Shown here one piece after another: positions 39,173 through 46,056 of a stretch of DNA of 64,000 nucleotides (positions are counted from its first letter, which is position 1; each line of letters begins with the position of its first letter). Below the pieces are notes generated by a model. That model was not told the origin of the DNA and searched no databases. It worked only from the letters and a program-made list of their open reading frames with translations. The DNA comes from the human T2T-CHM13v2.0 reference genome, Homo sapiens: the NCBI RefSeq assembly GCF_009914755.1, contig NC_060925.1. One strand, 5' to 3'. A program made the position numbers and the translations under genes.

Positions 39173-42100
39173 AATAAGAGAATGAGCCAGTCTCATCTAC
39201 AACCATATTAAACTTGTGTCTTCATGTGCACATTTGGTAACACATTTTGAACTACCTTGAATTTTCAAGTTTCTAGTTTTTCTCTTTAGCTGAGGACTTC
39301 TTGAAACCAATTGTTTTGGGGGAGAGAATATTTTTAGAATCCAGGCATGGCCCAAACAATTCTCTTTGAAAAGAAAGCAAACTGGAATCCTGGGAAAGCC
39401 GTTAATTCTCAACACTACTTATAAACATGACAAACAATAAAATAAATTCTATAACAACTTGTAAGAGCTTATGTTTTCACATCTAAATTTTCAATGGTAA
39501 GGTTCCTTACAATCTCAAGTGTTAAACAAAAGGTATCAAGCACACTTAGGTTACAAGGAGAAGCAAAAAGATTGGTTTGAGCAACCTGGATCACTTTCAA
39601 TAAGGGAGGAGGATCTCTGGAGAGTGTAACAGCTGAATTTCAAGAAATCTGGTTTCTAGTTTGGGCAAGTCAGTAAATCTGAGCTTTCTTTCTCACCTCT
39701 TACAAGTAATGGCATTTTCCTTCCTTCCTCACAAAGTTGACTCATGAAAGCACTTAAAAAAGTTAAAAATGTTACATACTATGTTCTTTAATCAGCACTA
39801 ATAACATTAATATTGATCGGGCAGAAGGTACAGCGATCATGCGGGTGGGGACCAGAATTGGGAATTGGGAATTGGGAAATCTAGGTTCTCAGCCCAACAT
39901 TTGCACCTGCTAGTTCGTGATGCAAGGCACCTCACTTATCCAGGTCCCCATTAAACTAGGTTTAATAAAGTGAGTTTGCCTAAACCTCTTCCTAGCTCCA
40001 AGGCTAATTTTAAGCTATTAATTTGAATCCAAGGCCTAAAATATTTGAGCTCTCATTTAACAGTCGGCCACTGCAAAGGGTAAAGACAGCAATCTTGTAT
40101 GAACAAAGTTAAACATAACGTGCTAGACACAGGTCTTTGCAAAACCATGCAGTAGCCAATAGGTCCACCATACCACCCTTCATTTGGAAATTGATGCTAA
40201 GGTGCCATAGGTACATTTCCAAATGCTCTTAAAATGTTTAGGTTCATATTAAAATAAAAATGGATATTTATGGTACAATGAGAACCAGAAAAACTGCAAA
40301 ATTATACACAGGCCTAAGGGCAGAAATACCCCAAAAGACGACACAGTGACAATATTTTCCAACTTGTGCTTTTTTGTTTTTAAAACAAGGCTGATGATTC
40401 TGAAATCAGGTCAATGTCTATCACTTTTTTCGTTGATGTTAAATGCACTAAGGGAATATAGATTCTTCAATTATACTTTGAAACAACATCATTTCCCTAA
40501 GTCAGGACTTTTTTATTGCAAAATTTAACAAACCACCAAACTCAAGTTTAATTATTTCTGCTTTATTATTGGTCATGAATAAAGACTTCTTTTAAAAAAT
40601 AATTACAAAGAATTTATGACTAAAATATACTCCGTAACCAACTTGCTCTGAAATTAATAATTTGAAAATGGCAAAGAAAAAAAAAAACAGCCCACAACAT
40701 ATTAACTTCACTCTTCAATTAGGGGAAATAAACAAGGTCAAAATTAGTTTAAACAACATACTGAGTAATAAAAAAGTTGTGCAGAAGTCCCAATGCCTCC
40801 AAAAAACTGATAGAATGTGCTTAATATATATATCCCCACATGGTAACATAAAAAATCCAAGTTTTCCAGTAAAAATGTTCTGTTCATGTTCCAATACCTA
40901 AATCTGGGAAAACAAATTCAGGCAGATGAGATAAGAACGTCACCACAATAAAATAAAGTCATCAAAACTTAGTGAACTAAAATTTAAAAGGTAGAGGAAT
41001 TATTTTTCCTAATTTGACCTAATTTGACCACACAGTAATTACTTCCAGAAGACAAAAGATCCAATCCAGGTAAAATAAATCTTTATTTTATTATTTTACC
41101 TGATCCTAAAGAAAATATTCTACGTGAGTTGATGGATACATTGGTCAAGTTTTATGCCAAAAAAATTACGCAAACTATACTCTGAAAGAGCTATCCAGAC
41201 TCCTTGCCAAAAGGCCAGCATAACTTTCAGAGTAGAGATCGTGAGTTACCACAGATGCTGATTGAAACAGAGCTAACAGCAGCTTTCTCCTCATTCCCAC
41301 CCCGTGTGTAGGAGTACGCAGTCTCATACCACCACCAGTTGGAGGATGATCTAGTCTGGAGACAGAACGGTGTCGAACAAAACCCTTGCCAGGGTCCCAA
41401 ACCTCTCTTTAGAACTCTAATTAAAGGTACTTCCGTTTCCCACACAACTTGGAATGAAGGGGAAGCAACGACTGTTAAAACATTTAAAAACTAAGCCTTT
41501 ATCTATTTATTTAGAAAACACACTATGCAAAGAAGCCAATTCCTTACATTAAAAATATTTATTTGCAACAGCTCTCCTTTTTAAGGCCTCAACAGATTGG
41601 ACTAAACCACACCCCTCCATAAATGGCACATTCCATACAATAGCCTGGAGAATGGCATAGGACGATTCCACCGACAGCTGGGGGAATAGCAAACTTGTTG
41701 AAATTCCGAGAATGAAGTCTGATGGTTACCCGAACCTAGCCCTTTTATTACTAAAGTCACTCGGGGACAAGAGGGTTACAAAAATATCCCGAGACGCGTA
41801 CGCGGGTGAGAGTGGAACGAGAACCACACGGGATTTGGGCCGTGCTGTTAACCCGCACCTCCCTGAGTACGGACATTTCCCCGAGGAAGGACATTTCTAG
41901 TCGGAGAGAAAGAGCGAACTTTGGGGTTAACTCTCTCAAAACTCTGAGGTGGGGAGAGAGGCAGCAGCCCATTATTTTCCAGGATCCAGTCCCGAACTCT
42001 CACTTTTGCCCGGGGGGAGAAAAACGGGTCCCGCCCACGCTCGGCCCGATCCGGGAGGCGGGGCCTGCAGCGACCCCGAAGGACAGAGGCGGGGCCGGTT

Positions 42101-42635
42101 GGCAGTGCTGCCCCTCCCCCTTTGCCAGGAACACCCCCGTCCGCTACAGAGAGGGCTCAGGGCCCCCACCCCCGCGCCAGTCGCTGGGGGAAGGGGCAAT
42201 ACGGGTGCCTCCGCCCCTCCTCGCTGAAGGTGGGGAGTGGAGCTCGAGTCCGCCCGCCTCCCCGCGCTGGCTCCAAGGGGACGGCCCCGAGGAGGTGGGG
42301 CCTCTTGGGGGCGCTGACTTCACACCCCTCCCCCTCCGGCCGCTGGCGGCTCAGGGACACCCCGCCCGCTCTAGTGCGGTGGGTGGGGGAGGCAGCTGAG
42401 CAGACCGGAGCCCTGCAGCGGCGCGGGGCGGGGAGGGGCGCGCGCACGGGCGCGCAGCCACCACCCCCGCGCGCCAGCAGGGCCCCCCACGCTCAAGGGT
42501 GCGCGCGGGCCCCGAAAGGGAGGAGGCCGCGCGCGGCACCGGGGATGGCGGACTCTAGCCTTCTGTCCCCCACTCTTTTCACCACTCGCCCCCATCCCCC
42601 TCCAACCCGCTCCAGGCCTCAGACTCCGCACTGAC

Positions 42636-42652
42636 CTGACAGGCCGCGACAT
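42636..42652 (-). CDS. NUCKS1: NUCKS1 exon 1 coding part (MSRPV-R)
   Basis: Minus strand reads GCGAAC ATG TCG CGG CCT GTC AG|gtcagt. A at -3; donor at 42635-42630. Confidence 0.95.
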
Positions 42653-42849
42653 GTTCGCTGTCGAAACAGGACCGAGTCGAGAAGCCAAAGACCAGGACCC
42701 CCCCCACCCCGCGCGCTCGGCGCCCCACCCCCCCCGAACTTCAGCCGATGGGACCGCTGCTGCCGAACCCCGAGCTGCTGGCTTCTCAAACTCCGCTGCT
42801 CTTTGGTTCAGGGCTCCTGGAACAGACGAGCCCCCCGCTCCCCCGTCTC

Positions 42850-43106
42850 TTCAAAATGGATGAATCAAACCAGCCGAAAATGCGCCAAAGCCGCCGTGCA
42901 ACCAAACCCACTAGGGTTTGTGCGCTCCTCCCCAACACGCCTGCTCATTGGAGACTTCTGCCAGATGCGCCCAGATCATTAGTCCGTTTGAATCATCACG
43001 TCTTCCAGGCCCCGCCCTGCTCTCTGATAGGCTCCACCTTCACCGTGGGGGTCCTGTTAGTCAAGATGCTCTGAGAGCGCACGGCCGCAAAACAAAAATG
43101 GTCGCT
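42850..43106 (-). promoter_or_regulatory. Cell-cycle-type proximal promoter: CHR TTTGAA (42850-55 minus; 42987-92 plus), E2F TTTGGCGC (42882-89), CCAAT (42947-51), CRE/E-box-like GACGTGAT (42995-43002), GC box (43010-17), YY1-like AAAATGG (43095-43101)
   Basis: Motifs read directly from the sequence; function inferred from known consensus sites. Confidence 0.65.
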
Positions 43107-43559
43107 GCTTAGCCCGCCCCCTGGTTTCCACTCCAGAGTTGCAGATTCGTCTGGGGTCGTATCTTAGAAAGACTAGAAAAAAAGATTTATGTAGGGTTCA
43201 GCGTTGCTCAGTGTTAGTTTAATGGTGTTTCATCTCGTCTGCCTTGATCACCTTGAAAATCCTCTAATAGCAAAACCCGTGGGAGAGGCAGCAGATTCGT
43301 CACTGCGGGGCTGCTACAGAATTGGAGGGAAATTCCTTAGGTTCAAAAAATTTGACCTTAAACCTACAAGCCCCTTACCCTGGCTTCGGCATTAACCCTC
43401 AGGGACCTAATGAGGCTGCTGGAGTAGAGAGGCAGGATCATAATCAAGGAATATCTTCACCCCCAATTACCATTCTCCATTCTGGACCTTGAGATCCACT
43501 TCAGGGTCATTAAAGTCCCAGTCTGGTGCATTACTATTTTAAGAAAAGAGTCAGGTGTA

Positions 43560-43790
43560 CAATAACTAAGAGCATGAGCTCAGGGGCCACAAGGTATTTC
43601 AGGTGGAATCCCAGGTCCACTACTTAATAGTGGTATAACTTTCCTTCTCTGTGCCTCAGTTTTCTCATCTGTAAAATGGGAAACAAGGGTACCTAACTGC
43701 ATAGGCTTATTAGTATTAAATGAGTTGATATATCTATCAAAAGTCTTTAGGATAGTCTCTGGCTCACAGTAAGTGCTACGTAAGTGTTAA
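43560..43790 (+). mobile_element. MIR, inside the spacer of the promoter inverted repeat
   Basis: ctctgtgcctcagttttctcatctgtaaaatggg core and ggctcacagtaagtgct end. Confidence 0.8.
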
Positions 43791-44064
43791 ATCCAAGTTT
43801 TAAAAGATGATTCCGTCCCTGGGTAGAGATGGGTGGAGCTGGCTCAAGACCCTATGAATTCTATTGATTTACCCTTGCACTTTGAAAAACAAAACAAAGA
43901 CTCTTCGAAGTCATATAACTGAAAGTAACGCACATCATTTCACTTAAATCCGTGAGCATTTGTTGGATGCCTAATACTCTCAAAGGCAGAGCTCAGGATT
44001 CCTATGTGAATGGCTAAGGCTGAGTCTGCTATCGAAAATAGACGTCAATCCCTGTCACAGTCAA

Positions 44065-44229
44065 AGCGATCATTTTTGTTTGGTGGCTGTGCGCTCTCAG
44101 AGCATCTTGACTAACAGGACCCCACGGTGAAGGTGGGGCCTATCAGAGAGTAGGGTGGGGCCTGGAAGACGTGATGATTCAAACGGACTAATGATCTGGG
44201 CGCATCTGGCAGAAGTCTCCAATGAGCAG
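44065..44229 (+). repeat. Inverted duplicate of NUCKS1 promoter segment 42941-43106
   Basis: Manual reverse-complement alignment gives 158/166 identity (7 substitutions, 1 indel). The track ORFs 42918..43112(+) and 44097..44288(-) share the peptide CSLETSARCAQIISPFESSRLPGP. Confidence 0.97.
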
Positions 44230-44237
44230 TCAGTTAA

Positions 44238-46056
<1,819 letters not shown>

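What the first reader, a model, noticed from the sequence alone, without database searches (positions are those of the whole stretch)
42941..44229. Mirror-image duplicate of the NUCKS1 upstream promoter: two 166-bp inverted arms around a 958-bp spacer
Seen: 42941-43106 and 44065-44229 are inverted copies (158/166 identical; not Alu or any TE I recognise). The arm carries the CCAAT box, a CHR-like TTTGAA, GACGTGAT, a GC box and a YY1-like site. The copy points away from NUCKS1, is followed by a second CCAAT (44241-45) and has a near-CRE AGACGTCA just inside it (44040-47). It lacks the E2F/initiation segment at 42850-42940. Inference: it could act as a duplicated outward-facing promoter driving a divergent plus-strand RNA, as a shadow enhancer or decoy for NF-Y/DREAM/ATF factors, or as the arms of a DNA stem-loop. 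The gene pair lies in the established PARK16 association region, which adds relevance. I do not know whether this duplication has been described.
Basis: partly seen in the sequence, partly recalled or inferred. Interest (0 to 1): 0.8.

Follow-up and report, generated by a model that had tools for sequence, protein, structure and literature searches.

The report
Mirrored copy of NUCKS1 promoter piece
A 166-base piece of the conserved NUCKS1 promoter was copied backwards about 1 kb further upstream. The original copy holds the Parkinson-linked variant rs823114 at one of the few bases where the two copies differ, but nothing yet shows that the copy does anything.

Summary
Arms 42941-43106 and 44065-44229 are inverted copies, 158 of 166 aligned columns identical, around a 958-bp spacer. 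They are the only two copies in the whole assembly, they have sharp ends and no target-site duplication. This is a single-locus inverted micro-duplication, not a transposon and not an assembly artefact.

The proximal arm is the parent. It lies 80-245 bp upstream of the RefSeq start site, and three published motif sites in it score 0.986-1.000 for placental conservation.

The distal copy lacks the start-site segment. Its GC box, E2F-like site and YY1-like core are mutated, and it sits in CpG-poor DNA with no annotated RNA. Its outer 73 bp (CCAAT, TTTGAA, ACGTGA) are still identical to the parent. All 8 differences lie in the inner 93 bp (simulated P 0.017-0.077), which fits gene conversion or constraint.

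New here: published genotyping probes place the PARK16 and NUCKS1-expression variant rs823114 at window 43083. That is inside the proximal arm, and its A allele equals the distal arm's base.

A cruciform is unlikely with a 958-bp spacer. Function, age and ancestral spacer orientation could not be tested here. My best reading is a decaying relic copy with possible residual factor binding.

The parts
42941..43106 (-). Proximal arm, the parent copy. It is the NUCKS1 upstream promoter segment, -80 to -245 from the RefSeq start site at 42861.
   Evidence: Alignment. Three motif sites in it have placental PhastCons scores of 0.986-1.000 in the Mueller 2014 supplement, mapped to the window.
44065..44229 (+). 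Distal arm, the derived inverted copy. On the + strand it reads in the same sense as the NUCKS1 promoter.
   Evidence: It is the only other copy in the assembly (2 matches).
43107..44064 (.). 958-bp spacer, single-copy except for one old dispersed repeat.
43631..43788 (.). Dispersed-repeat fragment inside the spacer. I recall the family as MIR-like; no tool named it.
   Evidence: 39 other genomic loci match spacer positions 525-682 at 71-98% identity (40 of 81 candidates were scored).
42941..43013 (.). Outer 73-bp block of the proximal arm, 100% identical to 44157-44229. It holds CCAAT, TTTGAA and ACGTGA.
   Evidence: all 8 differences lie at arm offsets 73-160. Simulated P is 0.017 for an end run and 0.077 for any gap of this length.
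44157..44229 (.). Outer 73-bp block of the distal arm, identical to the parent.
43083..43083 (+). rs823114 (G in this assembly; alleles G/A). It is a CpG site and one of the 8 differences between the arms. The distal arm has the A-equivalent base at 44088.
   Evidence: Published allele probes and common probe (PMC8265546 Table 1) map to 43062-43083 and 43084-43104. The hg19 position and sequence context are in the PMC10845915 supplement.
43084..43090 (-). E2F-type word TTGCGGC (conservation 1.000), directly next to rs823114. It is changed at two bases in the distal arm.
43012..43017 (-). GC box, in the proximal arm only. The distal arm reads GGGTGG at 44153-44158.
42850..42889 (-). Core promoter elements that were not duplicated: TTTGAA at 42850-42855, TTTGAT at about 42864-42869, and the E2F site at 42882-42889.

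Best explanation
One local mutational event copied 166 bp of the placental-conserved NUCKS1 upstream promoter (-80 to -245) in reverse orientation, 958 bp further upstream. From the divergence I infer the event is tens of millions of years old.

The copy took the CCAAT box, a conserved TTTGAA (CHR candidate), an ACGTGA word, a GC box, an E2F-type word and a YY1-like word. It did not take the start-site segment with the E2F site and the start-site-proximal TTTGAA. The copy therefore has no core promoter of its own.

Its inner 92 bp have since drifted: 7 substitutions and 1 indel, which altered the GC box, the E2F-type word and the YY1-like core. Its outer 73 bp are still identical to the parent. 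I attribute that most simply to gene conversion between the arms.

I read the distal arm as a largely neutral, partly decayed relic that may still bind NF-Y-type factors. I do not read it as a working promoter or a DNA hairpin.

Shown: the structure, its uniqueness, the parent/copy polarity, the motif losses and the rs823114 position. Inferred: the age, gene conversion and lack of function.
For: Structure and sharp ends.

Uniqueness: only 2 matches in the 3.1-Gb assembly. All four flanks tested are single-copy (apart from the dispersed repeat).

Parent polarity: the proximal arm adjoins the start site. Three of its motif sites have placental PhastCons scores of 0.986-1.000, mapped with one consistent offset for 8 of 8 motifs.

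Decay of the copy:
- All 8 differences lie in the inner 93 bp.
- The GC box, E2F-type word and YY1-like core are hit.
- The distal arm has 6 CpG against 9 in the proximal arm, and all three differences read CG in the proximal arm and CA in the distal arm.
- CpG observed/expected falls to 0.14-0.39 just beyond the arm.
- There is no TATA in 42800-44500.
- There is no gene between NUCKS1 and RAB29 in the supplied RefSeq table, and no NUCKS1-DT or NUCKS1-AS1 name in the paper library.
Against: The perfect 73-bp block that holds CCAAT, TTTGAA and ACGTGA is unexpected under uniform neutral decay. P is 0.017-0.077 by simulation. At the inner block's rate, 5.5 changes would be expected in 73 bp, giving P(0)=0.004; that figure is post hoc. 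Selection on the copy explains this as well as gene conversion does.

NF-Y is reported to bind outside promoters too (abstract of PMC3730095, seen in the search listing).

One of the three CpG differences is the polymorphic site rs823114 itself, so the asymmetry of CpG loss rests on 2-3 sites (P=0.125 at best).

No chromatin, transcription or cross-species data could be consulted.
Confidence: 0.55

Rival explanations
1. The distal arm is a selected shadow module. Its intact CCAAT/TTTGAA/ACGTGA block binds NF-Y, MuvB/DREAM-type or bZIP/bHLH factors. It acts as an auxiliary enhancer or as a sink for factors of the NUCKS1 promoter.
For: The outer 73 bp are identical while the inner 93 bp carry all 8 differences (P 0.017-0.077). 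The parental TTTGAA is a conserved CHR candidate, and the NUCKS1 promoter is reported as DREAM-, MMB- and FOXM1-bound. CHRs are reported to work in both orientations.
Against: Gene conversion gives the same pattern. Three other parental sites are mutated. Mueller 2014 finds working CHRs on or very close to start sites, and no start site is near the copy. Hume 2021 found that NUCKS1 repression after DNA damage does not depend on p21-DREAM. The supplied table has no RefSeq functional element over 44065-44229.
Confidence: 0.25
2. The arms are the footprint of a small inversion made by staggered breaks. The 958-bp spacer was flipped, and the segment between the staggered nicks (the 166 bp) was filled in at both ends. 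This concerns origin and is compatible with any functional reading.
For: The pattern matches the model of Ranz 2007, in which unique sequence is duplicated in inverted orientation at the two ends of a segment, with no repeat family involved. It has sharp ends. The arm is longer (166 nt) and further away (about 1.1 kb) than the short-range template switches catalogued in great apes (median 12 nt, maximum 128 nt, tens to hundreds of nt away).
Against: The model was derived from large Drosophila inversions. No outgroup sequence was available to show the ancestral orientation of the spacer. No interspersed repeat spans a breakpoint, so there is no internal test either. Longer-range replication template switching would give the same end product.
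Confidence: 0.3
3. The distal arm is an outward-facing promoter that drives a + strand RNA.
For: It carries the upstream promoter half in + orientation and is followed by a second CCAAT at 44241-44245.
Against: It lacks the E2F site, the start-site TTTGAA and the initiation region. Downstream DNA is CpG-poor and AT-rich and runs into an antisense Alu-type repeat from about 44415. There is no RefSeq gene in the supplied table. A CAGE eQTL study of frontal lobe reports its PARK16 antisense cluster at SLC41A1, not here (passages only).
Confidence: 0.07
4. The arms form a DNA cruciform or stem-loop, or mediate recurrent flipping of the spacer by homologous recombination.
For: As a single strand, the 1289-nt unit folds with the arms paired (minimum free energy -312.6 kcal/mol). 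Widely spaced repeats can interact in long single-stranded DNA.
Against: In duplex DNA, widening the spacer from 12 to 20 bp already cuts Alu inverted-repeat recombination about 40-fold; here the spacer is 958 bp. The inverted repeats listed in Table 1 of that study of human repeat-mediated inversions measure 1.6-32 kb (22 candidate inversions, not all validated). These arms are 0.166 kb with a 73-bp perfect tract. The fold result is trivial for any inverted repeat, and no shuffle control is given above 1000 nt.
Confidence: 0.04
5. The arms are terminal inverted repeats of a transposon, or an assembly artefact.
For: None beyond the inverted-repeat shape.
Against: Only two copies exist in the genome. 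There is no target-site duplication at 42940/44230. The spacer is single-copy apart from an unrelated old repeat. The arms differ at 8 positions, 6 of the 7 substitutions being transitions; an artefactual duplicate would not show that. The proximal part is colinear with hg19 for 8 of 8 published motif positions and 2 SNPs.
Confidence: 0.02

Closest known systems
Inverted duplications at staggered-break inversion breakpoints (Ranz et al. 2007, PMC1885836; passages read)
   Same: Ancestrally unique, non-repetitive sequence is present twice in inverted orientation at the two ends of a segment, with sharp ends and no transposon.
   Different: That model describes large Drosophila inversions, whereas this segment is 958 bp in a primate genome. 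Inversion of the spacer is not shown.
Short-range template-switch mutations in great apes (Walker et al. 2021, PMC7954356; passages read)
   Same: A nearby sequence is copied as its reverse complement, which creates an inverted repeat.
   Different: Catalogued events have a median copied length of 12 nt (maximum 128) within tens to hundreds of nt. Here 166 nt were copied about 1.1 kb away.
Inverted repeats that mediate human polymorphic inversions (Aguado et al. 2014, PMC3961182; passages and Table 1 read)
   Same: Two inverted homologous arms flank a unique segment.
   Different: Arms in that table measure 1.6-32 kb and the inversions 5.1-226 kb. Here the arms are 0.166 kb and the segment 0.96 kb. 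No chr1 entry appears in that table.
[quoted passage not shown] 2014, PMC4176359; passages and one supplement row read)
   Same: NUCKS1 is on the paper's list. The arm's TTTGAA is one of the conserved CHR candidates in its supplement, and a CCAAT box lies in the same duplicated arm.
   Different: The distal copy has only the upstream TTTGAA and the CCAAT. It lacks the start-site TTTGAA, the E2F site and any start site.

Membership tests
DNA transposon with terminal inverted repeats | Multiple dispersed copies of the terminal sequence in the genome | tested here: not met
   the arm matches only itself and its partner in the 3.1-Gb assembly. The tool warns that repeat counts are lower bounds.
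DNA transposon with terminal inverted repeats | Target-site duplication flanking the unit | tested here: not met
   the junction sequences outside 42941 and 44229 share no direct repeat.
Cruciform-prone palindrome | Short spacer between the arms | tested here: not met
   The spacer is 958 bp. One search reports a roughly 40-fold loss of activity from 12 to 20 bp.
Repeat pair able to mediate inversion by homologous recombination | Kilobase-scale arms with long tracts of high identity | tested here: not met
   The arms are 166 bp and the longest perfect tract is 73 bp. The set has arms of 1.6-32 kb.
Staggered-break inversion footprint | Inverted duplication of unique sequence at both ends of a segment | tested here: met
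Staggered-break inversion footprint | The segment has the opposite orientation in the ancestral state | not testable with these tools
   No non-human vertebrate genome is held. No repeat spans a breakpoint.
Short-range template switch | Copied length and distance within the catalogued range | tested here: not met
   The copy is 166 nt at about 1.1 kb, against a maximum of 128 nt at tens to hundreds of nt.
CpG-island or bidirectional promoter (distal arm) | CpG-island context and core initiation elements | tested here: not met
   CpG observed/expected is 0.54 in the arm and 0.14-0.39 beyond it. The E2F site, start-site TTTGAA and initiation region are not copied.
CpG-island or bidirectional promoter (distal arm) | Transcripts starting there | not testable with these tools
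   No expression data are held. The supplied RefSeq table has no gene there. One search found no named divergent RNA.
CHR/DREAM-regulated promoter (proximal promoter) | Conserved CHR near the start site, and DREAM binding | tested here: met
   Met from the literature only. The Mueller 2014 supplement row gives DREAM 1111, MMB 1 and FOXM1 1, with TTTGAA scores of 1.000 and 0.986. Against this, Hume 2021 reports p21-DREAM-independent repression.

The most novel reading that the evidence does not exclude
The distal arm's intact CCAAT/TTTGAA/ACGTGA block is kept by selection as a primate-specific mirror module of the NUCKS1 promoter. The two arms also exchange sequence, so variation at rs823114 (G in the proximal arm, A in the distal arm, A/G in people) reflects arm-to-arm conversion or parallel CpG loss that tunes NUCKS1 expression at PARK16.
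Probability: 0.12. Interest if true: 0.7.

Novelty: new member of a known kind. Interest (0 to 1): 0.45.

Why it matters
rs823114 is a PARK16 variant. The PMC10845915 supplement gives p=4.3e-9, OR 1.105 and an A allele frequency of 0.574. Satake 2009, as cited in PMC3166909, associated it with NUCKS1 transcript level at p=2.7e-34.

This work places rs823114 inside a duplicated promoter segment, next to a fully conserved E2F-type word. It sits at a base where the two copies differ, and its alternative allele equals the paralogue's base.

This has three consequences.
- Reads shorter than about 73 nt from the CCAAT/TTTGAA block cannot be assigned to one arm. ChIP, ATAC and methylation signal at the NUCKS1 promoter may therefore be lost or split.
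- Allele-specific analyses at rs823114 should check for cross-mapping from the distal arm.
- The ancestral allele and any gene conversion can be settled cheaply with primate alignments and long-read haplotypes.

Otherwise the structure is an ordinary product of local rearrangement.

Tried and rejected
- Transposon origin: rejected.
- Assembly artefact: rejected on the divergence pattern and on colinearity of the proximal part with hg19.
- Breakpoint test using repeats that span a junction: not possible, because the inner and outer flanks are single-copy and the only dispersed repeat is central in the spacer.
- Homology beyond the arms: none.
- Known RNA families in 42500-44800: only sub-threshold SRP and miRNA-type hits at 44448-44735, which are Alu-type, and nothing in the arms or spacer.
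- Tandem repeats: only a T-rich tract at 44421-44448.
- Named divergent RNA: NUCKS1-DT and NUCKS1-AS1 have 0 occurrences. AC119673.2 lies at PM20D1, not here.
- Prior description of this repeat: not found. I searched 'NUCKS1 promoter' (6 papers), NUCKS1 + 'inverted repeat' (6 papers, none about this locus structure), NUCKS1 + palindrom + promoter (10 papers) and rs823114 (19 papers). Subscription papers, such as the original NUCKS gene characterisation, are outside the library.
- The NUCKS1 review PMC5830027 says nothing on promoter structure.
- I considered scanning the prokaryote contig collection for stray human copies of the distal junction, but did not run it.

Full report
**1.

Alignment gives a proximal arm at 42941-43106 (166 nt) and a distal arm at 44065-44229 (165 nt) in inverted orientation. 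They differ by 7 substitutions and one single-base gap, so 158 of 166 columns are identical. The spacer is 958 bp.

In the window, the arm's only other significant match is its partner (E=2.6e-72). The next hits are 11-16 nt. Of 142 inverted pairs of 100 bp or more within 5 kb in this window, this pair is the most similar (95.2%; next 86.6%). It is also the most similar of 749 pairs at any distance (next 88.6%). The 25 longest pairs listed by the repeat finder are 76-85% complementary, and many of their positions coincide with stretches masked as repeats in the supplied annotation.

Homology ends sharply. The 300-nt outer and inner flanks align no better than shuffles: scores 10 and 11, against shuffle means of 9.4 and 11.4.

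**2. It is neither a transposon nor an artefact**

The arm has exactly two matches in the 3.1-Gb assembly, namely the two arms. The tool warns that repeat counts are lower bounds.

The sequence just inside each arm and just outside the distal arm is single-copy. Only spacer positions 525-682 (window 43631-43788) belong to a dispersed family. They match 39 other loci at 71-98% identity among the 40 candidates scored of 81. I recall this as MIR-like, but no tool named it.

No direct repeat flanks the unit. An assembly-made duplicate would be identical. Here 6 of the 7 substitutions are transitions, three of them at CpG.

**3. Which copy is the original**

The proximal arm lies -80 to -245 from the RefSeq start site (42861).

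The supplement of Mueller et al. 2014 lists motif sites for NUCKS1 with their average placental PhastCons scores. I saw one row of it, plus the method passages. Using the offset fixed by rs823114, all 8 listed motifs fall on the matching words in the window. Three of them lie in the proximal arm:
- TTTGAA at 42987-42992, score 0.986
- the E2F-type word TTGCGGC at 43084-43090, score 1.000
- AAACA at 43091-43095, score 1.000

The proximal arm is therefore old, conserved promoter DNA, and the distal arm is the derived copy. The conservation of the distal arm is unknown to me.

**4. State of the copy**

All 8 differences lie at arm offsets 73-160, and the outer 73 bp are identical. That block holds CCAAT, TTTGAA and ACGTGA.

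The inner part of the copy has lost three sites:
- the GC box (it now reads GGGTGG)
- the E2F-type word (two changes)
- the AAAATGG core

The copy has 6 CpG against 9 in the parent. It never included the E2F site at 42882-42889 or the start-site TTTGAA at 42850-42855.

Beyond the copy, CpG observed/expected is 0.14-0.39 and GC is 40%. There is no TATA word. An Alu-type repeat on the minus strand begins near 44415 (sub-threshold SRP hits; supplied annotation).

Random placement of 8 differences leaves an end run of 73 or more in 1.7% of simulations, and any gap of 73 or more in 7.7%. At the inner block's rate (7 of 93), 5.5 changes would be expected in 73 bp, giving P(0)=0.004. That figure is post hoc. 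Constraint on the parent alone cannot explain this pattern. Either the outer part of the copy is constrained, or it was homogenised by gene conversion.

**5. Age**

Seven substitutions in 165 nt give a Jukes-Cantor distance (K) of 0.044, with a Poisson 95% range of 0.017-0.087. With recalled rates of 0.5-1e-9 per site per year, this is 22-44 My if both copies drift, and more if only the copy changes. The inner block alone gives K=0.079.

This is a rough inference, and conversion would make the pair look younger. I expect the duplication in apes and Old World monkeys. I could not check this, because no non-human vertebrate genome is held.

**6. The PARK16 variant**

Table 1 of PMC8265546 gives ligation-assay probes for rs823114.
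- The allele probes map to 43062-43083, with the allele base at 43083.
- The common probe maps to 43084-43104 with 0 mismatches.
- The PCR primers map uniquely to 42858-42880 and 43135-43156, outside the arm.

The supplement of PMC10845915 gives hg19 chr1:205719532, REF G and ALT A, and the same sequence context.

So rs823114 is window 43083. It lies in the proximal arm, 222 bp upstream of the start site, in a CpG, next to the conserved E2F-type word. It is one of the 8 differences between the arms, and the distal arm carries the A-equivalent base.

The common probe covers the neighbouring differences at 43087, 43089 and 43101 in their proximal form. Genotypes in that study were in Hardy-Weinberg equilibrium, with A at 57%. 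The A allele is therefore not part of a long conversion tract. Three explanations remain open:
- A is ancestral, which needs only one mutation.
- The same CpG was lost independently in both copies.
- There was a very short conversion.

If A is ancestral, the fixed differences fall to 6 substitutions plus the gap.

Reported associations:
- PD GWAS p=4.3e-9, OR 1.105 for A (supplement row)
- strongest PARK16 SNP in an Ashkenazi set, and NUCKS1 transcript level p=2.7e-34 in Satake 2009 as cited (passages)
- open, active chromatin in microglia (passage)
- called a regulatory SNP from allele-specific data (passages)

**7. Function**

- Promoter binding: Mueller 2014 lists NUCKS1 among late cell-cycle genes with conserved CHRs, all bound by DREAM. 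The supplement row gives DREAM 1111, MMB 1 and FOXM1 1. CHRs work in either orientation but sit on or near start sites. Hume 2021 reports Rb-E2F and p53 ChIP signal near the promoter, but p21-DREAM-independent repression (passages).
- Hairpin or cruciform: as a single strand, the unit folds with paired arms (-312.6 kcal/mol, no shuffle control). In duplex DNA, a spacer increase from 12 to 20 bp already lowers Alu inverted-repeat recombination about 40-fold (Introduction of PMC10164571).
- Inversion by recombination: Table 1 of PMC3961182, which lists 22 candidate human repeat-mediated inversions (not all validated), gives repeat arms of 1.6-32 kb.
- Plus-strand RNA: none is annotated or named here (supplied table). 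The frontal-lobe CAGE study places its PARK16 antisense cluster at SLC41A1.

**8. Origin**

Two known routes fit. The first is a staggered-break inversion with fill-in (Ranz 2007). The second is a replication template switch, although the copy is longer and further away than the catalogued great-ape events, which have a median of 12 nt and a maximum of 128 nt. The human-chimpanzee microinversions described in PMC8755829 are 17-33 nt (abstract). Only outgroup sequence can decide between the two routes.

**9. Verdict**

This is a real, unique, old inverted micro-duplication of conserved promoter DNA. Most likely it is a decaying relic whose outer block is kept identical by conversion (confidence 0.55). 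A selected shadow site is the main rival (0.25).

The useful new point is that rs823114 lies in the duplicated segment at a copy-distinguishing base. I found no prior description of the repeat in four searches.

Noticed in passing
window 42409: Using the hg19 offset fixed by rs823114, rs7536483 (A/T; the second NUCKS1 regulatory SNP in PMC10845915 and PMC5998904) maps to an A in intron 1. That position is inside the RefSeq silencer 42035-42634.
   Followed up: partly
window 42923 vs 42861: The UCSC start site used by Mueller 2014 (hg19 205719372) maps to 42923. That is 62 bp upstream of the RefSeq-selected start site and only 18 bp from the arm's outer end.
   Followed up: partly
window 44415-44787: An Alu-type repeat lies on the minus strand (sub-threshold SRP RNA hits at 44448-44599 and 44619-44735). 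Its T-rich tail at 44421-44448 starts about 190 bp beyond the distal arm.
   Followed up: partly
whole window: There are 142 inverted pairs of 100 bp or more within 5 kb, almost all at 65-87% identity and many at masked-repeat positions. Long imperfect inverted repeats are therefore common here, and only the NUCKS1 pair is unique-sequence and above 90% identity.
   Followed up: yes
window 43800-44064: CpG observed/expected rises again to 0.49-0.76 in the 260 bp just inside the distal arm, although GC is only 41-50%. I have no explanation for this.
   Followed up: no
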